This document shows positions 2,391 through 15,687 of a stretch of DNA of 64,000 bases, piece after piece. The notes under the pieces are model-generated. The model had not been told where the DNA came from, did not search any database, and saw nothing but the letters and a program-made list of their open reading frames with translations. This stretch comes from an uncultured Candidatus Poseidoniales archaeon. GTDB lineage: Archaea; Thermoplasmatota; Poseidoniia; Poseidoniales; Poseidoniaceae. The position numbers and the translations under genes are program-made. The DNA is taken from contig CAZNXM010000006.1 in assembly GCA_964577145.1 (NCBI GenBank), forward strand, positions 878 through 64,877. Direction: 5' to 3'. Numbering within the stretch: position 1 is the first letter of the stretch; every line of letters begins with the position of its first letter.

Positions 2391-3319
2391 GCCCTCTTGA
2401 TTAGTACCTTCAGCATGTTTCGCCTATACCTTGGTGGAAGTGCTGTGTTGTTAACAGGTTTTACCTCTTTGTAAACCGCATCAGCAAGTGCTTTGATATC
2501 TCCTGCAGATTCTGCAACCTGCTCATCATGCCTTCGTGGAATGCTTTCCAAAGCAGTTGTTGCAAGCCTAAGTGTACTCTTTTCTCCTTCCTTCCACGCT
2601 GCTGCAACTCCAGCTTCAGGGAAATCCCAAGATTCACGGACTCTGAGTTTTTGATAGGACCCTGTGTACTGTACTGCGTCGCTAGGAAGGGAAATTTTGA
2701 GGACGAACTCTCCTGGCTTCAACACGTTTCGCGTCATTCCGTCGAGTTGGTAAAAATCATGCAGAAGCATTTCTCTTCCACCCTCTGGGCCGATTAAATG
2801 GATTGTAGCATCCAATACCATTAGTGCTGGTGCTAGGTCTCCTTGGTAGGTTGCAACACATAGTTCATTCTGATTTGGAATAACTCTACAGTCAGCCCCT
2901 GTTCCACAATCACATTTGTGACACCAATCGATACTGGACCTCCACTCTTCGGTTTGATTGAACCAGAAACATCGAGTATCCAGACATATATTGCCTCCTA
3001 AGGTTGCACTTCGACGAATGAGAGAAGATGCAACCTTACCTGCAGCCATAGCGATGAGTGGATGAACATCACCACTTTCGGCGATATCTTGGAGTCTTGC
3101 CATACAACCGATCTCGGTCATAGAAATCGTTGCTGCATCCAACCCAACAAGGGAGATTACATGCGGCTTGGTATTGATGTGCCACTTGTAATTGGGAATG
3201 AGGTCGGTACCGCCAGCAATCCAATCAAATTCTTCGCCAGCAGACATCAACTTAGCCGCAATGGCGCAAGCCTCCTCGACAGAAGTAGGGTTGTGAAGTT
3301 CAAATGGAGGCATCAACAT
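2378..3319 (-). CDS. FAD-binding medium subunit of a xanthine-dehydrogenase/CO-dehydrogenase-family molybdoenzyme (CoxM/CutB-like)
   Basis: 313 aa; 'AGGTDLIPNYKWHI' FAD-binding (PCMH-type) signature; 4-nt overlap with the upstream large subunit. Confidence 0.8.
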   Translation of the reverse strand: MLMPPFELHNPTSVEEACAIAAKLMSAGEEFDWIAGGTDLIPNYKWHINTKPHVISLVGLDAATISMTEIGCMARLQDIAESGDVHPLIAMAAGKVASSLIRRSATLGGNICLDTRCFWFNQTEEWRSSIDWCHKCDCGTGADCRVIPNQNELCVATYQGDLAPALMVLDATIHLIGPEGGREMLLHDFYQLDGMTRNVLKPGEFVLKISLPSDAVQYTGSYQKLRVRESWDFPEAGVAAAWKEGEKSTLRLATTALESIPRRHDEQVAESAGDIKALADAVYKEVKPVNNTALPPRYRRNMLKVLIKRACKE

Positions 3320-6123
3320 CAGTTATCCCCTCCCATTTTGCGTTGCTCTTCTTTGAGCCAAGCAGTTCCTGCAAGGCCTAGGTCTTCCATTTGTTCTGGG
3401 GTTGGTTTTGTAGATGCGACCCAACCTTCTGCCTGATATTCAAGAAGGAGACTTGAATCTAGGCCGAATAAGACACCATTTGCATATGCATCGATATCCT
3501 CTAGCCTCTGGCGCCTGCTGTCCCTATCCTCATGTACTTCTGCACGGGCTAGCAACTTATCTTGTAATGGCGAGAGGTCAAGTCGAGGAGTTGGAAGATT
3601 CTCCGGGTCATCAATACCTTCGAGTTTCATCTTCTTCGCAATTGCCGCCCATACCTTGTCTGGAGTCAATGGAAGGTCATTGATTCTAATTCCAATCGCG
3701 TCATAAACCGCATTGACAACTGCTGGAAGAATTGGGAGAAGTGGCCCTTCGCCGGCTTCTTTTGCGCCGAATGGCCCTTCCGGGTCACATGATTCAATGA
3801 GGATGGGAGTTACATTTGGCATCTCGTGTACACTTGGGATTTTGTAATCCAATAGATTCGGATTTTGTAGGTGGCCGGTTCTTCCATACACCATTTGTTC
3901 CGAAAGAACCTGTCCAAGACCCATGTGACATGAGCCGATAATTTGACCTTCAACTGCTAAGGGGTTGAGGGCCTTTCCACAATCATGTGCAGCCCAGACA
4001 TCGGTACATGAAATCATACCAGTTTCAACATCTACATCTACTTCTGCAACATATGCCGAAAAGGAATATGCTGGTGCTAAACCTGCAGCTGCTCCCTTGT
4101 GAACGCCACCCATTGGCGGGCTTCTATATGCACCACTAGCGATGAGAGCGCCCTTATCCTCTTGGGCTTTGTGAAGAGCCTCAAGGTATGAGATGCCAAT
4201 CGCTGGATTGTGCTTGTTGTAGATTCTGCGATCGTTTAGAATTAAATTTGTAGATTGGTCTCCAAGAATCGCATGCGCTGCTTCTAGCAACTCGTCCTTG
4301 ATTTCAAGTGCAGCACGAATTGCTGCATTTGCATTCATGAAGGTAACACGAGATGAATATGACCCGAGGTCAACTGGGCTAGTATCACTCTCATGACTAC
4401 GAACGTGGATCATTTCAATAGGTAAAGCAAGGACTTCAGCCACGACTTGAGCAATTGCAGTAGTCGAACCTTGGCCAATATCAGCAGCACCGGTGTGTAC
4501 TGTTACTCCACCATCCATGTCTACCTGAATGTGAACGGTTGCATGAGGGAAATTGTGCGGGTCCCAATGGATAGGTAGACCAGAGCCAGAGATGAAGAAA
4601 CCGCAACCAATTCCTATGCCTTTTCCAAGTGGTAATTTACGGAATTTATCTTTCCAATTTGATTGGCTGCGAACTTCATGTAAGGCTTGGCGCATACCAT
4701 TTGAAGTAATACGGAAACCTGTAATTGTACTAGAATTTGGAGGTAACAAATTTGCCAGACGCAGGTCGAATGGGTCAACCTGTAATTGTTCAGCCATATC
4801 ATCGAGTCCAACCTCGATAGCACAACGAGTATTTACTGCACCATGCCCCCTCATTGCACCACTTGCTGGCTTATTGGTCCAGACCCTAGCCCCAGTATAG
4901 TAGAAACTTCCCAATTCATATGGGGCTGTTGCTAGAACTCCGTTGTAGTATGAAGTGACATGGCCAAAGGAGGCAAATCCTCCGCCATCGATTAGGGCAT
5001 CGATATCAAACCCAGATATTCTAGCGTCCTCATCAGCATACATCTGTACTTCGATTCTACTTGGGTGGCGGCCACGATTAACCCAAAATACCTCTTCTCG
5101 GTCAAATGTAATTCGTACTGGCTTTCCTGATTTACGTGCTAATATTGCTGCACACATCTCATGGGGAAATGGGTCGGACTTGCCTCCGAATCCACCACCG
5201 ACAAAGGTTCGTATCACGTTGACTTGGTGCATTGGTACATCGAGAACTGTCGCTAATGCTCGGTGGGCATAATGAGGAACTTGCTGTGGAGTATAGAGTT
5301 GAAGACGACCATTGGAATCCCAATGTGCAACTACTGCATGAGGCTCGGTAAAACCATGGTTTACTCCCATGAATTTCCATTTTCCATTGTACATAGCCTT
5401 TGGATCCTCAACCTTTGAGCGGTCACCGAATTCTTGGAATACACGCTTCTGAACATTCGTGTTTCCAACATGATATTGCCCTCTCCAATGGATAGGTTCG
5501 TCCACATCTTCTAGGCCCTTGCGCATATCATGAATCGAGTCTAACACCTCATATTCGACACTGATTAAGGCGGCGGCTTCTCTTGCTGTAGCTTCATCTA
5601 CCGCTGCGACACACGCAACTAGATCTCCTACATGTCGAACCTTCTCAACTGCCATAGCATGCTCATCCTTTGTTACTGGAAGAACTCCGAAACTATTGGG
5701 TGCATCAGCACCTGTTGCAACTGCTAATACTCCAGGTAATGCTTCAGCAGCACTGGTATCAACCGATTTGACTTTTGCATAATGATGTGGAGAGCGAACG
5801 ATACGGCCAATGATTTCACCGGGAAGACGGACATCGTCTCCATACCAAGCCTGCCCTGTCACCTTGGCATTTCCATCGACGAGCGGCGTTCTCTTTCCAA
5901 CAGTAGTTCCAGTACGGGCACTATCATGGATATGGGCTCCTGCAGGCTGTTTCTCACGCCCTCCTTCCATCTCTGGGATGTAATCGAGATCTCGCTCAGC
6001 CATATCTGGCCTTGAACCTCCAGAGCCCGGTGGAGAGAAGGTCTGCTTTCCTGCAACCCGCTTTCCATCGATTCGCTTCTCGGAGGTCCCGCCTCCTGGT
6101 TGCTGTCTGTATCCTCCAGCCAT
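3319..6123 (-). CDS. Molybdopterin-binding large subunit of an XDH/CODH-family molybdoenzyme (CoxL/CutA-like); substrate unknown
   Basis: The ORF is open to 6195, but ATG at 6123 (MAGGYRQQ…) abuts the small-subunit stop. GGGFGGK motif; aldehyde oxidase/xanthine dehydrogenase a/b hammerhead and Mo-binding regions. Active-site loop reads AMRGHGA, which is neither the form I AYRCSFR nor the form II AYRGAGR CODH motif. Confidence 0.85.
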   Translation of the reverse strand: MAGGYRQQPGGGTSEKRIDGKRVAGKQTFSPPGSGGSRPDMAERDLDYIPEMEGGREKQPAGAHIHDSARTGTTVGKRTPLVDGNAKVTGQAWYGDDVRLPGEIIGRIVRSPHHYAKVKSVDTSAAEALPGVLAVATGADAPNSFGVLPVTKDEHAMAVEKVRHVGDLVACVAAVDEATAREAAALISVEYEVLDSIHDMRKGLEDVDEPIHWRGQYHVGNTNVQKRVFQEFGDRSKVEDPKAMYNGKWKFMGVNHGFTEPHAVVAHWDSNGRLQLYTPQQVPHYAHRALATVLDVPMHQVNVIRTFVGGGFGGKSDPFPHEMCAAILARKSGKPVRITFDREEVFWVNRGRHPSRIEVQMYADEDARISGFDIDALIDGGGFASFGHVTSYYNGVLATAPYELGSFYYTGARVWTNKPASGAMRGHGAVNTRCAIEVGLDDMAEQLQVDPFDLRLANLLPPNSSTITGFRITSNGMRQALHEVRSQSNWKDKFRKLPLGKGIGIGCGFFISGSGLPIHWDPHNFPHATVHIQVDMDGGVTVHTGAADIGQGSTTAIAQVVAEVLALPIEMIHVRSHESDTSPVDLGSYSSRVTFMNANAAIRAALEIKDELLEAAHAILGDQSTNLILNDRRIYNKHNPAIGISYLEALHKAQEDKGALIASGAYRSPPMGGVHKGAAAGLAPAYSFSAYVAEVDVDVETGMISCTDVWAAHDCGKALNPLAVEGQIIGSCHMGLGQVLSEQMVYGRTGHLQNPNLLDYKIPSVHEMPNVTPILIESCDPEGPFGAKEAGEGPLLPILPAVVNAVYDAIGIRINDLPLTPDKVWAAIAKKMKLEGIDDPENLPTPRLDLSPLQDKLLARAEVHEDRDSRRQRLEDIDAYANGVLFGLDSSLLLEYQAEGWVASTKPTPEQMEDLGLAGTAWLKEEQRKMGGDN

Positions 6124-6127
6124 GAAA

Positions 6128-6730
6128 TCAACTCTTTTGGCCCGAAGGTGATTCTGGGTTATCTGGTCCAGAAGGATGGGGGTCAGGGTGAGCATCGCTC
6201 ATCGGCGGATTTGATTCTACTTCGCCACGATGAATCGCTGCTGCTGCCTGAATTGATTCAATAATTTGCTGATAGCCTGTGCAGCGACAAAGGTTTCCTT
6301 CAATCGCACAAGCAACCTCTGTATCTGTGGGGTTTGAATTATTGTTTAGTAGAGCTTGTGATGTAATCAAAAACCCAGGTGTACAAAAACCACATTGTGA
6401 GCCGCCATGCTCGGTGAAGCATTGCTGAATTGGCGCGAGGTGAGCACCGTCAGAAAGGCCTTCTACAGTAGTAACTGAACGACCTTCAGCTTCGCTTGCC
6501 ATCATCAAGCAAGAAAGGCGTGGTACGCCGTCTATCATCACCGTACAGCATCCACAAGTGCCCATATCACAGCCCCGTTTTACTCCAAGTGTTCCCACTT
6601 TATCTCTAAGGACATCGAGTAAAATTGAATTTGATGGTGCAAGAACCTCGTAATCCTGCCCATTTACTTCGGCTTTCCAAATTCGATTAGGCAACACTGG
6701 AATCATCGCGATGTGTTCATCACCAACCAT
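6128..6730 (-). CDS. [2Fe-2S] small subunit of the XDH/CODH-family molybdoenzyme (CoxS-like)
   Basis: 200 aa; plant-ferredoxin-type 'CDMGTCGCCTV' and second cluster 'CGFCTPG…CRCTGY' motifs. Confidence 0.85.
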   Translation of the reverse strand: MVGDEHIAMIPVLPNRIWKAEVNGQDYEVLAPSNSILLDVLRDKVGTLGVKRGCDMGTCGCCTVMIDGVPRLSCLMMASEAEGRSVTTVEGLSDGAHLAPIQQCFTEHGGSQCGFCTPGFLITSQALLNNNSNPTDTEVACAIEGNLCRCTGYQQIIESIQAAAAIHRGEVESNPPMSDAHPDPHPSGPDNPESPSGQKS

Positions 6731-6998
6731 TCTTAGGCACCTACGGTGCCACCGAAGACGAAGCCCTCTTTCAGCATTGGCCCACTTATGCTAGATTTTA
6801 TTGGACGGCTTTACTGGTATTTCGTAGTGAAATAGCATCGTGAACATCAATACATATGCCCTGTTCAGTCCACTCTTGACATCTGTCCCAGCATCTGCCG
6901 AAATATCCAATTTACAAAGTATTCTGAATTTTCAACAAAACCACCAGAAGCGAGGATTCAAAGAAGGTGGCTGAGTCGCGCGGAGCGCGGTGAAGGAG

Positions 6999-8912
6999 AT
7001 GAACACTCTCAAGCGATTACTCAGTATATCTGCACTCGTACTTTTGGTAACTCCAATGCTGGTTGCAACAATCCCTGTTGCAGCCGAGCAAAACGAGGAG
7101 CCTGTTGGCTGGTGGACTGAAACAACCGTGGACCGTGATGGAAACGGTGTAGGTGACATGGTAGAGCGCTACATGTACCATCCCTTATTCCTTGACGATG
7201 ATGGGAGAATTTCTTTGATCTTTGATTTTGATCACACTCCTACTGCCGATGATATTACGATGTTAACATTCGAAGTTGATTATGAGCACCAATTCAACCT
7301 TCCTGGAATCGATGCTGTAGCGGGAACTATTCCTGTTGTTGAGATTCTGGATGCCAGAGACCTCCCCGGTATCGTAATGATTGAACTTGATGGAATTCTC
7401 GAAGTCACAAATGGTGATGCACGAGTAGGACACGGGGTTGACGTTGCATTCGAAGAGACCGGATATGATGGTTCAGGTACTACAGTGGCCATCATCGATA
7501 CTGGACTCGATGGCCTCCATGTAAGCATTGACGATATGGATGATGACAACTCAACAGATGACCCCAAGATTCTCGGATTTTATGATGCTGTAAACAATGC
7601 TAGCAACACCAATGGTACCGATTTCCCTTACGATGACCACGGGCATGGTTCGCATTGTGGAGGAACTACTGCGGGTACTGGAGCTCCAGACTACGAACAT
7701 GTAGGAATGGCTCCACAAGCACATCTCGTTGGTGTCAAAGTTCTCGACGGTGGAGGTTCTGGAAGTTTCGCTGGAGTTATGGCTGGAATGCAATGGACTA
7801 TCGATACCATGCACAATTACAATACTCGGGCTGCATCTATGAGCCTAGGTGGTCCAGGTGCTATTGAATGGACTTCATCAGAAGAAGACAGTGTTAACCG
7901 CATGGCTAATGAAATGGTTCGAAGTGGAATTGCACTCTTTATCGCAGCAGGAAATAGTGCCGTAAGTGCACAAATAGGCACTCCAGGTTCTGCAGAAGAT
8001 GTCATCACGGTTGGTGCGCTTGACAAGGACACTGGTATTGCACCATATTCTAGCCAAGGACCAACTGAAGAGGGGAGAGTCAAACCAAATATCGCTTACA
8101 TGGGCAGTAGCATCATGTCTGTAGCTGCTAATACTGGAGATGGTTATACCGCCATGAGTGGCACGAGTATGGCCACCCCTGGGGCTGCTGGAGTTGGAGC
8201 CTTGATGTTCCAAGCTGACCCGGACCTCTCTCCTTTCGATATTCGAAATATCATGCAGGAAACCGCTACTTATCGTCAATGCCATTACATGGCAAAGAAT
8301 GAGCCATGCGCAGAGGATTTAATTCCAAAGAATCGCCAAAATAACGTCTATGGCCATGGTCATACAAATGCCTATGAGTCTGTAATGGAGGCTGCGCAGC
8401 GTTCATTCACTTTCAACAAAAATATCACTCTAACATTAACTAGTCAGGCAAGTATGAATGGGCACATACACCTCTTGCCGGGAGATTCTATTCGCGTCGA
8501 AGTAACCGAAGGTACTGATACCGTTCAATGGATGAGTAATGACCTGCGAGATGGATGGTCCAATATCCATTCGTACGAACACGGTGATGTAGTATCTCTC
8601 ACATACGAAGAAATCGCACATGAACTCGAACACTTACCCGGTACTGAACTCGCTGGCAATCACACCCTCTCAATGCGTGGAATTGAAGGTACTAGTTCAA
8701 GCCCATTAATCACATTCGATATTATGCTAGGTGAGCCCACAACTATCACCGAAGAGGAAGCCTCTCAATCTAACCTCCTTCTCTGGGGATCTTTGACAGC
8801 AGCGATATTGCTCACCATTATTCTCGTAGTTGCAACTATGAAAAACGATAATGCTCAGTACATTCTTACCGATGATGATATCGATGAAGTGGTCGAAGCA
8901 GAGTTGCAATAA
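6999..8912 (+). CDS. Subtilisin-like serine protease (peptidase S8, halolysin-like), secreted, with C-terminal TM anchor and acidic cytoplasmic tail
   Basis: Catalytic triad motifs DTGLDG, HGHGSHCGGT and GTSMATP. The track start at 6990 is GTG; ATG at 6999 is preceded by AAGGAG (6993-6998). Signal peptide; C-terminal TM then DDDIDEVVEAELQ. Confidence 0.85.
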   Translation: MNTLKRLLSISALVLLVTPMLVATIPVAAEQNEEPVGWWTETTVDRDGNGVGDMVERYMYHPLFLDDDGRISLIFDFDHTPTADDITMLTFEVDYEHQFNLPGIDAVAGTIPVVEILDARDLPGIVMIELDGILEVTNGDARVGHGVDVAFEETGYDGSGTTVAIIDTGLDGLHVSIDDMDDDNSTDDPKILGFYDAVNNASNTNGTDFPYDDHGHGSHCGGTTAGTGAPDYEHVGMAPQAHLVGVKVLDGGGSGSFAGVMAGMQWTIDTMHNYNTRAASMSLGGPGAIEWTSSEEDSVNRMANEMVRSGIALFIAAGNSAVSAQIGTPGSAEDVITVGALDKDTGIAPYSSQGPTEEGRVKPNIAYMGSSIMSVAANTGDGYTAMSGTSMATPGAAGVGALMFQADPDLSPFDIRNIMQETATYRQCHYMAKNEPCAEDLIPKNRQNNVYGHGHTNAYESVMEAAQRSFTFNKNITLTLTSQASMNGHIHLLPGDSIRVEVTEGTDTVQWMSNDLRDGWSNIHSYEHGDVVSLTYEEIAHELEHLPGTELAGNHTLSMRGIEGTSSSPLITFDIMLGEPTTITEEEASQSNLLLWGSLTAAILLTIILVVATMKNDNAQYILTDDDIDEVVEAELQ

Positions 8913-8982
8913 TATCGTTGCACACTCTATATTGCCGGGCCAACTTTCAATAGGTTTGTAGTTAGGTGTATCGCTGAGAAAC

Positions 8983-11900
8983 ATGTCAGCACCGCCACGT
9001 CGACCCGTTAGACCCAAAGCAGTTGCAACAACCAAATCAATGGGACAAAGTACCCTAAGTGGTGCTGCAATCCAGCCAACCATCGAGATGGTAAATCCAG
9101 GGAGCCCACTTCCAAATGCAATTGAAAAAGGTATACAGAAATTTGCGCAATTAATCTTGTATGGCGTAGCAATGATTGCCATATGGGCAGCATTACTTTC
9201 GATTGCTTTCGATGATTCAGGCGACAATACTAATTTCCTTTTCCTTGGAGTTGGGGGATTGGTCTCCGCTAGTATGGCAATTGGGTTGGTTGAATTTCAA
9301 AGAAGGAAAGGTGGAGATGAACTTCACTCGGTTCACGATTACCTCATCGGCATGGGATTCTTTTTCATGGCTATAGGAGTTATTTGGGGAGCCAGATGGA
9401 TGATGGGTATCCTTGGAGAAAATGATGTAGATTGGATTCTTGAATCCGGAATCCCATATAGTAGTGACAGTGAATGGCACCCTTCAGCCAATGGAATCTA
9501 TATTCAGATGGGCGCATGCTTACTGATGGTCGCTGGACAATACATGTATCTCGACCGATTGAAGGGCAAAACTACCTTTGGTTGGTCAGTAATGGCATTC
9601 GCACCTTTGGCATTGGTATTGGTAGGATTCAATGTATGGATGGGTTGGGCCAATAATGATGTTTCTTGGGAAATTGGAGTTGCAATCGTATCGATGACTG
9701 CAGTTTCAATGTTCCTTGCTCTACGTTCTGATAGTTTCACAATTTTCGCAGTAGTTGCCGTAGTTAGTGGATTGATTCCGATTCTCTATGAATGGAACAA
9801 CAATCCTCCTGATTTAGATGGTACTGGAAGCGCAATGTCATTATTGGTATTCATTATCATTTTCCAGGGCTGGTTAGCAGCAGATCACCGCCTCCAGAAA
9901 GACAAGATGCAGTTAACTTCAGCTTTCTTAGTTGGAGAAGTAATAATCGCCATGCTTATCGCTCGTTCTGAAGACCTGAACTTAGTTCTTGGATTCCTAA
10001 AGCAAAGTGAACTTGGCGTGCTATCCGACATTTTTACGCTACAAGTTGCACTCTGGCTTACTGTATTATTGGCTTATTTCCCAGCAGCACTAAATCAGAG
10101 AATTCCGTACATGCCTATCGGTTTAGCAGGATGTTTATTCATTATCGTGCCAGAAGCAGGATTGATTCCTTGGACAATAACCATCCTAATGCTACCTTAC
10201 CTTCTCATTATCAGTGATAAGACGAGGAAATGGGTTGCAAATCTGACTATTATTGCTGTTGGTGGTTCCTTCTTCATACAGAGTTACATGGCTGGTGGGT
10301 TCCATTACGAGCACTTTGAGGCGCTAATTTTGTGCTCACTGGTAATCACAGGAGAATTTGCTCGCCAACGAGGTAAACTTTCGAATTGGGCACATTTCTC
10401 TATGCTCGGATTATTGGTTCTCTCGGATTCCGTTCTATTCGGTGAAGATCCATGGATACCATGGATAATCGTAGGCTACACGGTTGTTTCGTCTTGGATG
10501 ATGATGCGAAACGCGGAAATCAACGATAGCCCCAGTGAAGCATTCGAAGGGTCTGCAGCAACCTTTGCCAGCATATTAATCACAATCATTCTGAGTTGGG
10601 CTGGACGCTTGGAGATGCCATTCCTAGAGTCGATTACCGACAAGATGGATGGCTTCAATCTACCACTTGCAATAGTTGGTCTAGGTATTTATGCAGCAAT
10701 GCGACAATACAAGCATATTGAACTAGACCTCGGTAGTCTACTCGCTTGGGGTGATGATAAACGCAAACAGATCATTCCAGTTTTCGACTCAGAGGCCAAT
10801 GCTTGGTTGATTCCTGAACCAGACCCAAATGCGCCACCCGCATGGGTTGTGAAGAGTTGGGGGCCGCTTGGAAGGATGAGTTTACTTGGCTCAATGGTAT
10901 TATTCACCATTGCAGTAGCCACTGTAAGCAACGAAGCGATTTCTTCCAATCTCATCTGGCCGCTTACAATGTTAATACCGGTTGGAATTGTTATCAAAGA
11001 AGTAATTGATGATGATGAAGCATCTTCTCTTGGAAGGATGATTGCAACCTGGACCATCTTCGCAATGGCACTCCCCGTGTCCATGAAGATGATATGGGAA
11101 TCCGGCCATGCCGCAGAATTGCTGACCAATAGTTTGGTTCTCGACCTCATCTTACTCTCTGGCCCGATTGGCGTTTCTATAATGTTAACCAAGAAGGGCT
11201 TGAATGATGATGCTCTGAATGTCAGTGCTGATAGAATGACATTCTTTGGGCTATTAGCACTTGGAATGCTCGATTCTAGTGGAGGTATCCTCTTCCTAGC
11301 AATGTACCTCCTTGTATTTCAGAGGAGTTTGAAGCACAGGCATAACCTCGTACTGAGTCTTGCCCCAATCGCCTTACTATTGTACGGTGATCGCTTCATC
11401 TGGGATGGAGCTACTATCGGTTCAATAATCGGAGTTATTGACTTTGGAAGTTATGACCTAACCGAAATCACTTTCCTTGGATTGACCAGGTTCTCTGGAA
11501 TTGTTATGGCAAGTACTGCCTTGATGATTCTTGGAAAGGGAGTTGCAGACCGACATCATGGCCTGAAAGATGGCGCTATCGAGACTCCGATGGCAGCACC
11601 TGCGATTTGGTTGGCAATCGGTCTGTTAGCAGTTCTCCCTGAGGCAAGTTGGCTACTGCTTACTCTAACTATGATGATCGGATTCTATTCATGGCTATCC
11701 GGACGTATACAATTCATTCCTTGGATGCCATTATTCACACTGGCTTCATTCTGGTTTGGATTCTCATGGGATTCGAACTTCAATCATTTCACCGTTGGGG
11801 AATTTGTTTCACATACCCTATTAGGAACTGGATTTGTCACAATGATTCTCAATCGTATGGCACAAAGTGGAACTCTGTACCGCTGGGCTGATGAACCACT

Positions 11901-13026
11901 AGTAAATCCAGATGCCATTGTGAGTAGTTTCAATCTTAACTTGGTAGCAGGTAGGGAACGAATGATTGAAATCATGAGAATTTGGACACTGGTTTGTCTC
12001 ACAGCATCCTATGATGCATTTGATGGAATTGGAACTGTACTCGGTGCTCTTTGGGCGACATGGGACACCTATGTTCGTGGACAAAAGTACCTAATTCTCG
12101 GTACACCACTACTCCAGGCATTCGCTGCATGGAATATCATTGAACACATCGTTCCAAGCGAACAAATGGCTCAAGATGTAATTGTAGGAACTGTGCTAAT
12201 GGTAAATGGAATGCTGATGACGGTGTTAGCTACAAAGGCCGATATCGCATGGAGTTGGAAGCAATTCAAATGGGATGATGAAACCGATTACTATTCTTGG
12301 CTTGATCGAATTGGTATCATGGCTATCTGTTACTTCTTAATTGGTCTAACATGGGCACTCGGCGATGCTGAAATCGAAGGGGCAATGTGGACAATGTGGG
12401 CGGTATACCTTGCAGGTATAGCGATTCAAGGATTCAGAGATGAGACTGAAACTCCATGGAGAAGAGGATTCGGTTCATTTGGAACTCTATTTGCGATATT
12501 CATGCTCTCTACAACATTCACAGATGACCTATTCATGTACGTCACTTGGATGTTAATGGGAATAGTAGCATTCGGCTTTGGAATCTTGTACATGAATAGA
12601 ATGGGAGATGCTGATACGCTATACGAGCAAGCACCTGTAGCGGAAATTGCAACTAAGGTTTACCAATCTGAGGAAGAAGCAGAGGAAGAGACGGAAGAAG
12701 AAGCCGTTGAAGAATCTGAGGATGCAGAGGAAGAGACGGAAGAAGAAGAAGTCGTTGAAGAATCTGAGGACGCAGAAGAAGAGTCTGAAGAAGCCACTGA
12801 AGAAAAACCCGTTGAAAAGGAAGAGGCTGTAGATGATTCTACAACTGAAGATATACCAACTACGTCAAATGTTGTACCGACCGGTGCTGGATTTAGTATG
12901 GCAATTGACCCGCAAATCATGGCTGTGATTCAGAATACTTTGGCTAGAACTCCGCATGACGGTTTCCAACCGGTAATTACGATGCAACCAAATGGCAACT
13001 TCAAAATTGACTTCACACCACTATGA
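8983..13026 (+). CDS. Giant (1347 aa) polytopic integral membrane protein of unknown function with a poly-acidic (E-rich) tandem-repeat tail and a small C-terminal domain
   Basis: One continuous ORF; dozens of hydrophobic, Trp-flanked helices. Residues about 1225-1285 read EEEAEEETEEEAVEESEDAEEETEEEEVVEESEDAEEESEE, encoded by a tandem DNA repeat of about 45-51 bp at 12694-12786. I recognised no known family motif. Confidence 0.6.
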   Translation: MSAPPRRPVRPKAVATTKSMGQSTLSGAAIQPTIEMVNPGSPLPNAIEKGIQKFAQLILYGVAMIAIWAALLSIAFDDSGDNTNFLFLGVGGLVSASMAIGLVEFQRRKGGDELHSVHDYLIGMGFFFMAIGVIWGARWMMGILGENDVDWILESGIPYSSDSEWHPSANGIYIQMGACLLMVAGQYMYLDRLKGKTTFGWSVMAFAPLALVLVGFNVWMGWANNDVSWEIGVAIVSMTAVSMFLALRSDSFTIFAVVAVVSGLIPILYEWNNNPPDLDGTGSAMSLLVFIIIFQGWLAADHRLQKDKMQLTSAFLVGEVIIAMLIARSEDLNLVLGFLKQSELGVLSDIFTLQVALWLTVLLAYFPAALNQRIPYMPIGLAGCLFIIVPEAGLIPWTITILMLPYLLIISDKTRKWVANLTIIAVGGSFFIQSYMAGGFHYEHFEALILCSLVITGEFARQRGKLSNWAHFSMLGLLVLSDSVLFGEDPWIPWIIVGYTVVSSWMMMRNAEINDSPSEAFEGSAATFASILITIILSWAGRLEMPFLESITDKMDGFNLPLAIVGLGIYAAMRQYKHIELDLGSLLAWGDDKRKQIIPVFDSEANAWLIPEPDPNAPPAWVVKSWGPLGRMSLLGSMVLFTIAVATVSNEAISSNLIWPLTMLIPVGIVIKEVIDDDEASSLGRMIATWTIFAMALPVSMKMIWESGHAAELLTNSLVLDLILLSGPIGVSIMLTKKGLNDDALNVSADRMTFFGLLALGMLDSSGGILFLAMYLLVFQRSLKHRHNLVLSLAPIALLLYGDRFIWDGATIGSIIGVIDFGSYDLTEITFLGLTRFSGIVMASTALMILGKGVADRHHGLKDGAIETPMAAPAIWLAIGLLAVLPEASWLLLTLTMMIGFYSWLSGRIQFIPWMPLFTLASFWFGFSWDSNFNHFTVGEFVSHTLLGTGFVTMILNRMAQSGTLYRWADEPLVNPDAIVSSFNLNLVAGRERMIEIMRIWTLVCLTASYDAFDGIGTVLGALWATWDTYVRGQKYLILGTPLLQAFAAWNIIEHIVPSEQMAQDVIVGTVLMVNGMLMTVLATKADIAWSWKQFKWDDETDYYSWLDRIGIMAICYFLIGLTWALGDAEIEGAMWTMWAVYLAGIAIQGFRDETETPWRRGFGSFGTLFAIFMLSTTFTDDLFMYVTWMLMGIVAFGFGILYMNRMGDADTLYEQAPVAEIATKVYQSEEEAEEETEEEAVEESEDAEEETEEEEVVEESEDAEEESEEATEEKPVEKEEAVDDSTTEDIPTTSNVVPTGAGFSMAIDPQIMAVIQNTLARTPHDGFQPVITMQPNGNFKIDFTPL
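12694..12786 (+). repeat. Tandem repeat of about 45-51 bp encoding the polyacidic EEAVEESEDAEEETEEE units of the giant membrane protein tail
   Basis: Near-identical 'gaagaagaagccgttgaagaatctgaggatgcagaggaagagacg' and 'gaagaagaagtcgttgaagaatctgaggacgcagaagaagagtct'. Confidence 0.8.
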
Positions 13027-14289
13027 TTAATCTCGCTCGACGATAGCCATTCCAATAGAATGGTCATTCGCCGGAGAGTCGATCGAGGGGTATACGCCCC
13101 AGTAAGTTTCTCTTGACTGCTGATTGAGTTCCATACACAAGACAACATCTCCCGGTCTATCCGAAAGTGTTGAAGAGCCGTTGAGGTGAGCAATCATCCC
13201 ATCAATATTGGACCAGTTTAGAACGCCCCATCCGACCTGAGTGCACGGTGCTACTGGCGAGATTGGGATAGTTCCGGTAGTGGGGTCCCATCCTGTACCG
13301 CTAGGATACCATCCCGAGAGATTGAGTGCGTGACGGATGTCAGAGTTGGTAATTTGAACATCGCCGTCGACTAGAGCGCCATCCCTACCTCCGGAACCGC
13401 TGTCATTGAACTCCGCTCTCAATGTCGTCATCACATGACCGAGGAAGCCTGCGGTCCTTGGCGTGGCAAACGAAGTTCCAGAAGTTTCGTGATAACCATC
13501 CACGTCCTGATGATTGGGGAGGACTTGTGTCCAGTCCGATGCCATATCTGGATATGACCCCGACATTGTCTCCTTTTGGTCGTCCTCGCCTTCGGCATAG
13601 CCTGAGACTCCGATAGACCAAGGTGGCCCTGCTGTAGCGTCCTGAATGGCTGGTGAAGGCGAGTTGTCCGCCGCTCCAGTGTGGATTTTGTGATGGTCGA
13701 CAACCGCTACCTTCGTCGCATCTTCGATTCCTGGGACAGGTACGCTTCCTGGAGCACCAAATGATGTGGTTATGACATCGACCATAGGATGAGTTCCTGC
13801 TAATAGGACTGCTTCATCGCTGAAACCCTCGACGAAGTAGATGATTGCATCCGGGTCAGCATCCAGAACCGCTCCGGTCACGGCGGTCCCGTGTCCATCG
13901 GACGGATCATCGAGAATTAACTGGCCTGTATCTCCTGAAGACGATGCGAAAATTCTGGTACCGGTGAAATACACAACATCATCGGTGGTGATTAGATTCC
14001 AGCAGGTCTCCATATCAGCAGAGAGGCGTTCTGAATAGCTGCCATTGGTCGTTAGTTCACATACCAAAGTGGTGAGCATATCATCGATTAGCCATTGGGG
14101 AAGTGTCTCGTTAGTTTGGAAGTGGTTATGGTAGGGATTGATTCCGGTATCGATTGGTGCAATTACGCTAAATGCCCTGAATCCATCATCGATAATCGGT
14201 GGCTCGACCACTATCTCCTCATCATCCGATAAGCATCCTGACAGGCCCGAAAGAAGGACCAAGGAAGTCAGAATGAGGGCCCGAAGCAT
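13027..14289 (-). CDS. Second subtilisin-like serine protease (peptidase S8), probable lipoprotein/secreted
   Basis: 420 aa; N-terminal LLSGLSGC lipobox-like signal; triad motifs DTGINPYH, DGHGTAVTG and SGTSFATPRTAG; convergent with the giant membrane gene, stop-to-stop adjacent. Confidence 0.75.
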   Translation of the reverse strand: MLRALILTSLVLLSGLSGCLSDDEEIVVEPPIIDDGFRAFSVIAPIDTGINPYHNHFQTNETLPQWLIDDMLTTLVCELTTNGSYSERLSADMETCWNLITTDDVVYFTGTRIFASSSGDTGQLILDDPSDGHGTAVTGAVLDADPDAIIYFVEGFSDEAVLLAGTHPMVDVITTSFGAPGSVPVPGIEDATKVAVVDHHKIHTGAADNSPSPAIQDATAGPPWSIGVSGYAEGEDDQKETMSGSYPDMASDWTQVLPNHQDVDGYHETSGTSFATPRTAGFLGHVMTTLRAEFNDSGSGGRDGALVDGDVQITNSDIRHALNLSGWYPSGTGWDPTTGTIPISPVAPCTQVGWGVLNWSNIDGMIAHLNGSSTLSDRPGDVVLCMELNQQSRETYWGVYPSIDSPANDHSIGMAIVERD

Positions 14290-14360: not shown

Positions 14361-14894
14361 ATGGGCGGAGAGATGGTCTGGATTGATCTGGAGATGACGG
14401 GACTCGACATCGAAAACGAGTCGATCATCGAGATTGCCACAATCGTCACCGATGCTGAACTCAACATCATCGCTACCGGTCCTAATCTTGCAATATCAGT
14501 TTCAGAGGAACTCATCTCAGGTATGGATGAATGGAATACCGAGCACCACCACGCCAGTGGTCTAGTCGACAGAATTCGTAGTGAAGGCGTCTCGCTGGAA
14601 GAGGCTTCTAACCAGACATGTGAATTCATTTCTCAATATATAGAGCCGGGTAAAGCGCCCCTATGCGGCAACTCAATTCACAATGATAGGGCGTTCCTTG
14701 CTAAGGAGATGCCACAAGTTCTCGACCTTCTTCACTATCGCTTAATCGATGTTTCAACTATCAAGGAGCTGGCAAATAGATGGTACCCTGATGTTCAACG
14801 GTACCAGAAAAAGGAAGCGCATCGCGCTCTTGATGATATTCTCGAATCGATTGAAGAATTACGTCACCACAGGGCGACCTTGTTCAAAGATTGA
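14361..14894 (+). CDS. orn: Oligoribonuclease (DEDDh 3'-5' exoribonuclease)
   Basis: 177 aa; near full-length similarity to bacterial Orn (WIDLEMTGLD…IIEIATIVTD…CGNSIHNDRAFL…HRALDDI). Confidence 0.85.
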   Translation: MGGEMVWIDLEMTGLDIENESIIEIATIVTDAELNIIATGPNLAISVSEELISGMDEWNTEHHHASGLVDRIRSEGVSLEEASNQTCEFISQYIEPGKAPLCGNSIHNDRAFLAKEMPQVLDLLHYRLIDVSTIKELANRWYPDVQRYQKKEAHRALDDILESIEELRHHRATLFKD

Positions 14895-15687
14895 CGCCTT
14901 TGTGGGCTGCCAATATCTCAGCAATTACTGCAATTGCAATCTCTTCAGGACTTTCGGCACCAATATCCAATCCAATTGGGCAGTTTACTGCATCCAATTG
15001 GTCTTGAGTTACTCCAGCATCGATAGCAATCTTGCTGAATGCTTTCCATTTTGACTTTGATCCGATTACCCCTAAACGACCAGAATAACCAGCAAATATC
15101 AATCCGAGAAGTCTTTCTTCGTCCTCATTCCAATCATGACCCAGCAATAAGATATCACTAAACCGAGATAGTGAAGACGAATCCTCTGCCATCAAGAAGT
15201 CGCCTGGGCAGGAATGATGAGTCTCTTTTGCACCGTCGATAGAAGAAAATTCTGCTCTAGAGTCTTGTACGGAATATGACCAACTCAGTGGCTTGCAGGC
15301 TTGAGCAATCGCAATTGCACAATGACCTCCACCCATTAGAAGAATGTGCGGCATAGGAATCAGGACCTCCAATGCGACGGTCACTCGCCCGCCACAAAGG
15401 CTGTCGAGTGGTGTTACCTCATAGCCCTTAGCCCCCTTATTCAAACCAAAAGTTAGTACTTCGCCGCATGGTTTTACTGCACTTGTAACAAGTTCTCTCA
15501 ATCGTTTGGATACATTCAATTCCAATCCTGCTCCACCGATTGTACCATGTGAACCCGAATCACATAATGCAAGACGAGCGCCCTCTTTCCCGGGAACTGA
15601 ACCCGAAGTTGAGATTACAGATGCAATCCCTACCTTTTTGCCATTACCAAGGTGCTCTAAAGCCCAAGCAAGAGTTACTGCCGTCAT
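14884..15687 (-). CDS. xdhC: XdhC/CoxI-family molybdoenzyme maturation (Moco insertion) factor
   Basis: 267 aa; Rossmann-like 'ILLMGGGHCAIAIA' C-terminal domain typical of XdhC; 4-nt overlap with the mocA-like gene. Confidence 0.7.
   Translation of the reverse strand: MTAVTLAWALEHLGNGKKVGIASVISTSGSVPGKEGARLALCDSGSHGTIGGAGLELNVSKRLRELVTSAVKPCGEVLTFGLNKGAKGYEVTPLDSLCGGRVTVALEVLIPMPHILLMGGGHCAIAIAQACKPLSWSYSVQDSRAEFSSIDGAKETHHSCPGDFLMAEDSSSLSRFSDILLLGHDWNEDEERLLGLIFAGYSGRLGVIGSKSKWKAFSKIAIDAGVTQDQLDAVNCPIGLDIGAESPEEIAIAVIAEILAAHKGVNL

What the first reader, a model, noticed from the sequence alone, without database searches (positions are those of the whole stretch)
6999..14289. Module of two S8 subtilases flanking a giant 1347-aa polytopic membrane protein with a polyacidic tail
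A halolysin-like S8 protease (6999-8912), a 1347-aa protein that is almost entirely transmembrane helices (8983-13026), and a second, convergent S8 lipoprotein-like protease (13027-14289) lie back-to-back with 70-nt and 0-nt spacers. The membrane protein has no recognisable family motif. It ends with about 60 residues of Glu-rich tandem repeats plus a small C-terminal domain. This size and architecture is unusual for an archaeal membrane protein and may be an uncharacterised transporter or scaffold working with the proteases (e.g. peptide uptake or surface-protein processing). The block sits between the two halves of the Mo-enzyme gene set (see separate finding), which suggests it is an insertion.
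Basis: partly seen in the sequence, partly recalled or inferred. Interest (0 to 1): 0.6.

Follow-up and report, generated by a model that had tools for sequence, protein, structure and literature searches.

The report
Orphan 38-helix archaeal membrane protein
Between two ordinary subtilisin-type protease genes of a Marine Group II archaeon lies a gene for a 1347-residue protein that is almost entirely buried in the membrane (about 38 helices), is found only in this archaeal order, and resembles no known family or solved fold; its tie to the proteases looks like inherited gene order, not a proven working unit.

Summary
The three ORFs are real and lie at the stated coordinates. S8a (6999-8912) is a signal-peptide, C-terminally membrane-anchored subtilase. 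S8b (13027-14289, minus strand) is a divergent lipobox subtilase. Both keep the Asp/His/Asn/Ser catalytic residues.

The 1347-aa protein has about 38 membrane helices (18 + 20), both termini cytoplasmic, and no outside loop over 34 aa. It ends in a poly-Glu tail plus a small C-terminal domain.

It matches nothing in Pfam, NCBIfam or PDB sequences. A confident N-domain model (pTM 0.86) has no significant Foldseek match in the PDB. Named homologues come only from Poseidoniales (Marine Group II): 195 hits among 1.84 billion cluster representatives.

The S8a-membrane gene pair occurs in one monophyletic clade (about 35 loci) plus one deeper lineage, always inside the same collinear neighbourhood of about 15 kb. 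In about 30 other loci the membrane gene has unrelated neighbours. S8b is usually absent next to it, and in a Thalassarchaeaceae genome S8b stays with the Mo-enzyme genes without it. The membrane gene carries its own conserved BRE/TATA-like element.

Verdict: a truly orphan, unusual membrane protein. A protease "module" is unproven, and a recent insertion is refuted.

The parts
6999..8912 (+). S8a: a 637-aa subtilase. It has a Sec-type signal peptide, a propeptide, a catalytic domain (nt 7470-8360), a C-terminal beta domain, a single TM anchor (nt 8775-8840) and a short acidic cytoplasmic tail.
   Evidence: Pfam PF00082 at 163.8 bits. Best solved relative is 3afg Tk-SP, E 1e-48. Catalytic residues D167/H216/N319/S390 and the anchor LLLWGSLTAAILLTIILVVATM are present. 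Orthologues at 62-75 % identity sit at the same position in about 35 loci.
8935..8953 (+). BRE/TATA-like promoter element of the membrane gene (CCGGGCCAAC-TTTCAATAG). It starts 47 nt upstream of the ATG, inside the 70-nt S8a-BIG spacer.
   Evidence: The same element (CGG-N-N-N-AA, then an A/T-rich box) lies at -48 to -45 in 54 of 55 non-redundant loci, whatever gene lies upstream. This includes the divergent L077 lineage. Promoter function is inferred, not shown.
8983..9144 (+). BIG residues 1-54: a Pro/Arg-rich cytoplasmic N-terminus (conserved MSxxPxRPxRP).
   Evidence: Alignment consensus. Seven K+R fall in this segment.
9145..10710 (+). BIG N-domain, TM1-18 (residues 55-576). This is the most conserved part. 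It holds the invariant core RRIPYMPIGLA...PEA...LPYL...TRxWVA, a short Pro/Gly-rich helical hairpin at residues 376-410.
   Evidence: AlphaFold model of residues 41-560: pLDDT 88.5, pTM 0.86. The residues invariant across 52 family members (P208, W219, S313, W358, R373, P375, W397, R415, W417) all lie here. Distant homologues match mainly this part.
10711..10875 (+). BIG residues 577-631: a 55-aa cytoplasmic linker between the two halves. It has a small beta hairpin and is rich in K/R.
   Evidence: Model secondary structure and the loop table.
10876..12606 (+). BIG C-domain, TM19-38 (residues 632-1208). It holds the conserved cytoplasmic motif QGFRDETETPWRRGxGSFG.
   Evidence: Full-length model, pLDDT 75.5. 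Twenty hydropathy peaks. Loop K+R is 34 inside versus 4 outside across the whole protein.
12607..12867 (+). Cytoplasmic polyacidic tail (residues 1209-1295). Glu-rich 16-aa repeats are encoded by a 48-nt tandem repeat at 12665-12793.
   Evidence: TRF. 34 E and 5 D in the 80 residues 1216-1295. Length and sequence vary among homologues.
12868..13026 (+). Small conserved C-terminal domain (residues 1296-1347, consensus LxPxxxxxIxxxLAxTPHxGFKPV...NG...F) plus the stop codon.
   Evidence: tblastn finds it only at the C-terminus of BIG homologues, and gives no significant match in the clade of 1240-1260-aa proteins.
13027..14289 (-). S8b: a 420-aa divergent subtilase with a lipobox-like signal (LSGC, Cys19). 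It is convergent with BIG, and the two stop codons abut.
   Evidence: Pfam PF00082 at 34.5 bits (cut-off 21.8). The D47, H133 and N209 columns and the G-T of the GTS motif are invariant in 8 orthologues; S273 is seen in the window protein's own GTSFATP motif. More than 2000 homologues at E<=1e-5, the best-scoring at 63-78 % identity and named from both MGII families. It is adjacent to BIG in only 8 of the 66 scanned loci, plus L077.

Best explanation
The block is vertically inherited chromosome of a Poseidoniaceae (Marine Group II) archaeon, not a mobile insertion. It holds three separately functioning genes.

S8a is an extracellular subtilase tethered to the cell by a C-terminal helix. S8b is a lipoprotein-type subtilase that is widespread and well conserved in the order. 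Both fit the known protein-degrading lifestyle of these archaea.

The gene between them encodes the founding member of an order-restricted orphan family. It has about 36-38 membrane helices in two halves (18 + 20), with N- and C-termini in the cytoplasm. Almost no surface is exposed outside the cell. It ends in a cytoplasmic poly-Glu tail plus a small docking-type domain. It appears to be transcribed from its own BRE/TATA-like promoter.

Most likely mechanism (inferred, about 0.4): it is an autonomous transporter- or channel-like machine of a new fold. Its working centre would be the invariant Pro/Gly-rich short helical hairpin (residues 376-410). This hairpin is flanked by two invariant cytoplasmic-face arginines (R373, R415) and is too short to cross the bilayer twice, which resembles a re-entrant gating or substrate hairpin. 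The substrate is unknown. Adjacency to S8a reflects conserved gene order in one lineage; any functional coupling, such as uptake of proteolysis products, is optional.

Shown: gene structure, family membership of the proteases, topology, phyletic restriction, absence of known relatives, the synteny pattern, and the conserved upstream element.

Inferred: promoter activity, re-entrant geometry, and transport function.
For: - Genes and domains.
- Orphan status: no Pfam or NCBIfam family; no consistent weak Pfam hit in 28 members or in 8 distant members; the PDB sequence profile search returned 0 hits at E<=1. Foldseek against the PDB gave no hit at E<=1e-3 for the full model or the confident N-domain model (pTM 0.86; best TM-score 0.39, to designed helical repeats).
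- Restriction to MGII: 202 hits, with only Poseidoniales/'Euryarchaeota archaeon' names. 195 hits among 1.84e9 representatives. All 66 loci found in the GTDB species genomes are Poseidoniales MAGs. The few source names of distant members are 'hypothetical', from Thalassarchaeaceae, Poseidoniaceae or unclassified Thermoplasmatota/Euryarchaeota MAGs.
- Topology: 38 helices or hydropathy peaks; loop K+R 34 inside versus 4 outside; longest outside loop 34 aa.
- Invariant residues cluster in TM5-13, around a 12 + 6 + 17-residue hairpin.
- Own promoter-like element at a fixed distance in 54/55 loci.
- Synteny.
- Not an island: composition; the same arrangement in about 30 species.
- MGII genomes are known to carry 1-4 extracellular S8 genes each (PMC6864105). 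They also hold about 199 order-specific families (PMC9258230); that paper notes that lineage-specific hypothetical proteins in general are rich in transmembrane helices and signal peptides.
Against: - No substrate, partner or expression data exist.
- No known transporter fold and no internal inverted repeat was detected (hhalign probabilities are at most 2 % for large segments), although most secondary transporters have one.
- Few strictly conserved charged residues lie deep in the membrane. The conserved residues are mostly Gly/Pro/Trp/Arg, which suits a structural protein equally well.
- The Foldseek neighbours, although not significant, are all helical-repeat or toroid proteins. This fits a scaffold-like hairpin array.
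- S8a stays next to the gene even in a lineage where S8a is inverted and the membrane protein has diverged to 31 % identity. This leaves room for real coupling.
Confidence: 0.55

Rival explanations
1. Structural scaffold. The protein is a membrane-embedded array of helical hairpins, a 'transmembrane solenoid' comparable in principle to a Piezo blade. It would organise, curve or stiffen the membrane, or anchor a cytoplasmic partner through the poly-Glu tail and C-terminal domain. It would transport nothing.
For: The top Foldseek neighbours of both models are designed helical repeats or toroids, TPR proteins and VPS35. Conserved residues are mainly Gly/Pro/Trp/Phe/Arg at interfaces. No internal inverted repeat was found. 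The helix count is the same as Piezo's 38 (PMC10095409). The tail plus its domain look like a docking module.
Against: Those Foldseek matches are not significant (E>=0.01, TM<=0.39). No Piezo chain appears among the listed hits. No 4-helix repeat unit was detected. The tail and domain are missing in a whole clade. The invariant short Pro/Gly hairpin looks more like an active element than like packing.
Confidence: 0.25
2. True protease-permease module. S8a, with or without S8b, and the membrane protein act together, for example surface proteolysis coupled to peptide uptake, or the membrane protein holding or processing the anchored protease.
For: S8a is directly upstream with a constant spacer of about 66-73 nt in about 35 loci. 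Adjacency survives inversion of S8a and divergence of the membrane protein to 31 % in L077. The S8b stop codon abuts or overlaps the membrane gene's stop. S8a has a TM anchor that could contact the protein within the bilayer.
Against: The whole neighbourhood of about 15 kb is collinear in the same loci, so adjacency is not specific. All S8a-linked copies form one clade. About 30 other loci have unrelated neighbours with no common theme: MscS, a CARDB protein, LVIVD, LemA, an alpha/beta hydrolase, ribosomal genes. S8b is absent in most loci and stays with the Mo cluster without the membrane gene in L078. The membrane gene has its own promoter-like element. The longest outside loop is 34 aa, so there is nothing for an extracellular protease domain to bind.
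Confidence: 0.15
3. A very divergent member of a known family (MMPL/RND, GT-C/OST, Mrp-type antiporter, ESX EccD-like) that these searches were too insensitive to recognise.
Against: All traces are below cut-off and inconsistent between members. The EccD3 TM-score is 0.18-0.20. The mycosin cut-off is 278.75 bits. A confident N-domain model (pTM 0.86) should recover any common transporter or GT-C fold with Foldseek, but the best TM-score is 0.39, to soluble repeat proteins.
Confidence: 0.05

Closest known systems
Tk-SP / subtilisin-type S8 proteases (PDB 3afg), for S8a and more distantly S8b
   Same: S8 catalytic domain with the Asp-His-Ser order, an oxyanion Asn, an N-terminal propeptide and a C-terminal beta domain. 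The role is extracellular.
   Different: S8a adds a C-terminal transmembrane anchor and an acidic cytoplasmic tail. S8b is so divergent that it finds no solved structure by sequence, and it has a lipobox-type signal.
Piezo channels (38 TM helices per subunit)
   Same: The number of membrane helices is comparable, and very few proteins reach it. Most of the mass lies within the bilayer.
   Different: There is no sequence or Foldseek similarity, no detectable 4-helix repeat units, no cap or beam domains, half the length, and an archaeal origin. The resemblance is numerical only.
Re-entrant-hairpin transporters and channels (for example glutamate-transporter HP1/HP2, aquaporin half-helices)
   Same: A short, Pro/Gly-rich helical hairpin that enters and leaves the membrane on the same side. 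Here it carries the family's invariant residues.
   Different: The surrounding fold does not match any of them. This is an analogy inferred from segment lengths, not a tested homology.
Poseidoniales-specific hypothetical protein families (modules 32/71 of PMC9258230)
   Same: An order-restricted, function-unknown family of the kind catalogued there.
   Different: That catalogue does not describe this protein individually. Its size, helix count and lack of any fold relative set it apart.
ESX/type VII secretion: mycosin (S8) with the polytopic EccD
   Same: An S8 protease encoded beside a polytopic membrane protein.
   Different: The mycosin model scores 67 bits against a cut-off of 278.75. The EccD3 match has TM-score 0.18. 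No EccB/C/E or substrate genes are present, and the host is an archaeon.

Membership tests
Peptidase S8 (subtilase) - S8a | Pfam PF00082 above the gathering score; catalytic Asp, His, Ser in that order, plus the oxyanion Asn | tested here: met
   163.8 bits against a cut-off of 21.8. DTG at 167, HGS at 216, AAGN at 316-319, GTSMATP at 388-394. 3afg matches at E 1e-48.
Peptidase S8 (subtilase) - S8b | Pfam PF00082 above the gathering score; catalytic residues conserved | tested here: met
   34.5 bits against a cut-off of 21.8. The D47, H133 and N209 columns and the G-T of the GTS motif are invariant in 8 orthologues; S273 is seen in the window protein's own GTSFATP motif. Sources name homologues 'S8/S53 family peptidase'.
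Halolysin subgroup of S8 | Haloarchaeal origin, twin-arginine (Tat) signal peptide, and the halolysin C-terminal extension | tested here: not met
   The host is Poseidoniales. The signal peptide MNTLKRLL has K-R, not R-R. The nearest solved relative is Tk-SP, and the C-terminus is a TM anchor. The halolysin C-terminal extension itself was not compared.
MMPL / RND transporters | 12-TM core with two large periplasmic loops; Pfam MMPL or ACR_tran | tested here: not met
   No Pfam or NCBIfam hit. No outside loop exceeds 34 aa. No Foldseek PDB hit.
Oligosaccharyltransferase / GT-C (STT3, AglB, PMT, ArnT) | 13-TM GT-C fold, an acidic motif in the first outside loop, and a large C-terminal outside domain | tested here: not met
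   No Pfam hit. The first outside loop is 6 aa. There is no outside domain, and the C-terminus is cytoplasmic. No Foldseek hit.
Piezo | Nine 4-TM repeat units, plus beam, anchor and cap domains; Piezo Pfam domains | tested here: not met
   No Pfam hit. hhalign of 2-, 4- and 6-helix units gives no repeat signal; the best match is a 14-column motif at 63 % probability. No Piezo chain appears among the listed Foldseek hits.
Type VII (ESX) mycosin-EccD pair | Mycosin equivalog score; EccD fold; other ecc genes nearby | tested here: not met
   TIGR03921 scores 67.3 bits against a cut-off of 278.75. 6umm_B gives E 0.097 and TM 0.18-0.20. The neighbours are Mo-enzyme, XdhC, MocA and acyl-CoA dehydrogenase genes.
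Recently inserted genomic island | Atypical composition, patchy presence among close relatives, mobility genes or repeats at the borders | tested here: not met
   GC is 0.43-0.52 against flanks of 0.44-0.50. The same arrangement occurs in about 30 species. No integrase or transposase is among the annotated neighbours. Border repeats were not searched.
Operon with S8a (co-transcription) | A single transcript, with no internal promoter | tested here: inconclusive
   A conserved BRE/TATA-like element lies in the 70-nt spacer at a fixed distance from the ATG in 54/55 loci, which argues for an own promoter. No obvious T-run terminator follows S8a, so read-through is not excluded. No transcript data are available.

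The most novel reading that the evidence does not exclude
The protein founds a new structural class of membrane protein, made of 36-38 helices with a fold unrelated to any solved structure. It would be specific to one of the ocean's most abundant archaeal groups. It would be either a new type of transporter or channel built around a re-entrant Pro/Gly hairpin, or a Piezo-like in-membrane scaffold. In the Poseidoniaceae lineage that keeps it beside S8a, it might take up the products of cell-surface proteolysis.
Probability: 0.15. Interest if true: 0.8.

Novelty: categorically new. Interest (0 to 1): 0.5.

Why it matters
Marine Group II archaea are among the most abundant uncultured plankton, and about half of their genes have no assigned function. 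This protein is of about 1250-1400 residues and was found in every named MGII lineage sampled, although no census of genomes was made. It has one of the highest helix counts predicted for any protein and no relative by sequence or solved fold. That makes it a concrete, well-delimited target for structural and functional work, and a possible new membrane-protein fold.

The analysis also corrects the tempting 'protease module' reading. Gene order here is inherited synteny, so the proteases should not be used to annotate the membrane protein. The protein's function remains unknown, so the value lies in its strangeness and testability, not in a solved mechanism.

Tried and rejected
- Pfam, NCBIfam, PDB sequence profile. 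hmmscan of the protein, of 28 family members at E<=1 and of 8 distant members gave only scattered sub-threshold hits: PFF1_TM, MbhE, DUF2619, SHR3. I treated these as noise. The profile search against PDB sequences gave 0 hits.
- Foldseek against the PDB. The full model (pTM 0.52) and the N-domain model (pTM 0.86) gave nothing at E<=1e-3. The EccD3, complex I subunit L and ABC-transporter rows have TM-scores of at most 0.2 and I rejected them.
- Internal duplication. hhalign of 300-residue windows and of 2-, 4- and 6-helix units gave no repeat signal. The only signal is a 14-column motif shared by the starts of TM11 and TM29.
- First representative search. It failed because the profile exceeded 1200 positions. 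I repeated it with trimmed sequences.
- Neighbour themes. Pfam scans of neighbours in the other clades showed no recurring partner. The 443-aa and 457-aa upstream genes of different clades are unrelated to each other.
- C-terminal domain elsewhere. tblastn of the domain against about 1 Mb of MGII DNA found it only in homologues of this protein.
- Inside versus outside loop conservation. The means are 0.58 and 0.57, so this is uninformative.
Full report
**1. Observation**

The ORF list and translations confirm three genes.
- S8a: 6999-8912 (+). The ATG lies 9 nt inside a GTG-started ORF that begins at 6990.
- BIG: 8983-13026 (+), 1347 aa.
- S8b: 13027-14289 (-), 420 aa.

The spacers are 70 nt and 0 nt. 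Pfam assigns Peptidase_S8 to S8a (163.8 bits) and to S8b (34.5 bits; cut-off 21.8). The catalytic Asp/His/Asn/Ser motifs are intact in both. The Asp, His and Asn columns, and the G-T of the Ser motif, are invariant in eight S8b orthologues.

S8a has a Sec-type signal peptide and a C-terminal TM anchor (residues 593-614), followed by a short acidic tail. Its nearest solved relative is Tk-SP of Thermococcus kodakarensis (3afg, E 1e-48), so 'halolysin-like' is only loosely right. S8b starts with a lipobox-like LSGC.

The BIG tail (residues 1216-1295) has 34 Glu and 5 Asp in 80 residues. It is encoded by a 48-nt tandem repeat, and a conserved domain of about 45 aa follows.

Upstream lie a xanthine-dehydrogenase-family large subunit and a 2Fe-2S subunit. 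Downstream lie RNase T, XdhC, a MocA-like transferase, an acyl-CoA dehydrogenase and a Na/Ca exchanger.

**2. The membrane protein: topology**

A first AlphaFold model of residues 41-1240 (28-sequence alignment) gave pLDDT 75.5 and pTM 0.52, and is almost entirely helical. A second model of residues 41-560, with a 52-sequence alignment that includes distant members, gave pLDDT 88.5 and pTM 0.86.

Model helices combined with hydropathy give 38 membrane segments. The family-averaged hydropathy profile independently shows 38 peaks at the same places: 18 before and 20 after a 55-aa loop at residues 577-631.

With the Arg/Pro-rich N-terminus inside, the loops hold 34 Lys+Arg on the cytoplasmic side and 4 outside. 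The longest outside loop is 34 aa. The tail and C-terminal domain fall in the cytoplasm. For comparison, a Piezo subunit is described as having 38 TM helices (PMC10095409).

**3. The membrane protein: relatives**

- It has no Pfam hit above cut-off and no NCBIfam hit.
- No weak Pfam hit recurs among 28 members at E<=1, or among 8 distant members.
- A family profile finds nothing in PDB sequences at E<=1.
- Foldseek against the PDB gives no match at E<=1e-3 for either model. The best rows are designed helical repeats or toroids, TPR proteins and VPS35, with TM-scores of at most 0.39.

Homologues:
- 202 in the 5.8-billion-protein collection. All are 'hypothetical' where named, from Poseidoniales or 'Euryarchaeota archaeon' MAGs.
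- Only 195 among 1.84 billion cluster representatives, most of them fragments.
- The few named distant members come from Thalassarchaeaceae or unclassified Thermoplasmatota/Euryarchaeota MAGs.
- All 66 loci found in the GTDB species genomes are MGII MAGs. The closest (94 %) is a Candidatus Poseidoniaceae MAG.

The family is therefore order-restricted and orphan. A published survey reports about 199 Poseidoniales-specific families, and notes that lineage-specific hypothetical proteins in general tend to be membrane-associated or secreted. It does not describe this protein (PMC9258230).

**4. Conserved features**

Across 52 members the invariant residues are P208, W219, S313, W358, R373, P375, W397, R415 and W417. 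All lie in TM5-13.

They surround the most conserved stretch, RRIPYMPIGLAGSLFIITPEASLIPWIITLIMLPYLLIISKVTRxWVAN. This is a 12-residue helix, a 6-residue turn with Pro-Glu-Ala, and a 17-residue helix. Both ends sit at the cytoplasmic face beside invariant arginines. Thirty-five residues are short for two full crossings. I infer a re-entrant hairpin, the kind of element that forms substrate or gating sites in several transporter and channel families.

No internal duplication is detectable. The one exception is a 14-column motif, R-I-P-x-M-P, shared by the starts of TM11 and TM29. The offset is exactly 18 helices, the size of the N-domain. This is suggestive but weak.

**5. Synteny**

*Linked loci.* Seven context look-ups and a tblastn survey of the 66 genome loci show S8a directly upstream on the same strand in about 35 loci, counting the 66 scanned loci, the context look-ups and the window. 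The spacer is 66-73 nt. In every case the context is the same: Mo-enzyme genes, a PlsC-like 457-aa gene, S8a, BIG, (S8b), RNase T, XdhC, MocA, acyl-CoA dehydrogenase. In a neighbour-joining tree of BIG these copies form one clade. S8b lies beside BIG in only 8 of the 66 scanned loci.

*Unlinked loci.* Other clades have quite different neighbours.
- BIG 52-54 % identical: an MscS channel, LVIVD and DUF2071 proteins.
- BIG 42-46 % identical: LemA and unknown bitopic proteins.
- BIG 41 % identical: a 187-aa membrane protein and an alpha/beta hydrolase.
- BIG 41 % identical: a 1250-aa CARDB surface protein and ribosomal genes.

No theme recurs.

*S8b tells a different story.* The S8b family has more than 2000 hits at E<=1e-5, the best-scoring at 63-78 % identity and named from both MGII families. 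Looking up two of them was informative.
- On a 1.88-Mb contig (L077), S8b (67 %), a BIG homologue of only 31 % identity and an S8a orthologue (61 %) are still adjacent. There S8a is inverted, so it is divergent from BIG. The same XdhC/MocA/acyl-CoA dehydrogenase context is present.
- In a Thalassarchaeaceae genome (L078), S8b lies between XdhC and the Mo-enzyme genes. An S8 only 33 % identical to S8a lies nearby. No BIG gene lies within the 15-kb locus.

*What this means.* S8b belongs to the ancestral Mo-cluster neighbourhood. S8a plus BIG joined it anciently in a Poseidoniaceae lineage and have stayed. BIG is unlinked to any S8 in many other lineages. Because the whole region is collinear wherever the triad occurs, adjacency alone does not show functional coupling.

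**6. Own promoter**

A conserved element lies upstream of the BIG start codon. It reads CCGG(C/G)NNAA followed by an A/T-rich box: ATTCAAAAG, TTTCAATAG or ATATAATAT. It begins 45-48 nt before the ATG in 54 of 55 non-redundant loci, regardless of the upstream gene. It is also present in L077. In the window it occupies 8935-8953, inside the S8a-BIG spacer.

Its form and distance fit an archaeal BRE/TATA promoter with a very short leader. That is an inference from established promoter architecture, and no transcript data are available. It explains the constant spacer and argues for independent transcription.

**7. Not an island**

GC content (0.43-0.52) is within the range of the flanks. The arrangement is shared by about 30 species.

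**8. Interpretation**

The two proteases are ordinary members of a known family, in an organism known to carry several extracellular S8 enzymes (PMC6864105).

The membrane protein is the interesting part. It is an order-specific, roughly 38-helix protein with no detectable relative. My best mechanistic guess (about 0.4) is a transporter- or channel-like machine of a new fold, centred on the invariant hairpin. The main rival (about 0.25) is a structural hairpin array or scaffold that uses the acidic tail for docking. A dedicated protease-permease module is possible but unsupported (about 0.15). A missed known family is unlikely (about 0.05).

I score interest at 0.5: strange and well delimited, but of unknown function.

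Noticed in passing
window 6872-6877 (junction); L010 3401-4738: The closest relative (L010, 88-90 % DNA identity) and nearly all syntenic genomes carry a 457-aa PlsC/acyltransferase-like membrane gene between the 2Fe-2S subunit gene and S8a. The window lacks these 1338 bp cleanly, and tblastn finds no trace of the gene. This is either a lineage-specific deletion or an assembly artefact.
   Followed up: partly
L078 2637-12360 (Thalassarchaeaceae, JBJLBO010000005.1): In an MGIIb genome the S8b orthologue (65 %) and an S8 only 33 % identical to S8a sit inside the Mo-enzyme/XdhC/MocA cluster, with no BIG gene in the 15-kb locus. The lipoprotein subtilase is therefore an old resident of this metabolic cluster. 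The reason is unexplained.
   Followed up: partly
L077 7001-14700 (1.88-Mb contig): Here the BIG homologue has diverged to about 31 % identity, while the flanking S8a and S8b remain 61-67 % identical and the acyl-CoA dehydrogenase 80 %. S8a is inverted relative to the window. The membrane protein is either evolving unusually fast or was replaced by a deep paralogue.
   Followed up: partly
window 10108-10140 and 11707-11745 (BIG residues about 373-385 and 907-920): A short motif, R-I-P-x-M-P, recurs at the cytoplasmic entry of TM11 and of TM29. The offset of exactly 18 helices equals the size of the N-domain (hhalign probability 63 %, 14 columns). It may be a faint trace of an ancient internal duplication.
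   Followed up: no
window 14361-14894 (+) and 14884-15687 (-): The RNase T-like gene and XdhC converge and overlap by 11 nt at their 3' ends. The same tight convergent pair is conserved in the related loci.
   Followed up: no
window 6128-6195: The ORFs for the Mo-enzyme large subunit (3319-6195) and the 2Fe-2S subunit (6128-6730) overlap by 68 nt as listed. In relatives the large subunit is 933-934 aa, against 958 aa here. The true start is therefore probably an internal codon about 24 codons downstream.
   Followed up: no
L039 and L060 (MAG EAC30, two contigs): One MAG carries two BIG copies, with nearly the same identity to the query (42-43 %) and the same U443/U303 neighbours, on different contigs. 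This could be strain heterogeneity in the bin or a recent duplication.
   Followed up: no
L022 4440-6786: In MAG UBA10 the S8a orthologue is split into ORFs of 645 and 131 aa. This is a frameshift or sequencing error, or a decaying gene.
   Followed up: no
L076 5381-10819: An 1812-aa distant family member (P0157) matches mainly in the N-domain and has about 500 extra residues. It lies in an unrelated context next to a DUF3754 protein and PaaA/PaaC-like genes. Its taxonomic origin was not determined.
   Followed up: no
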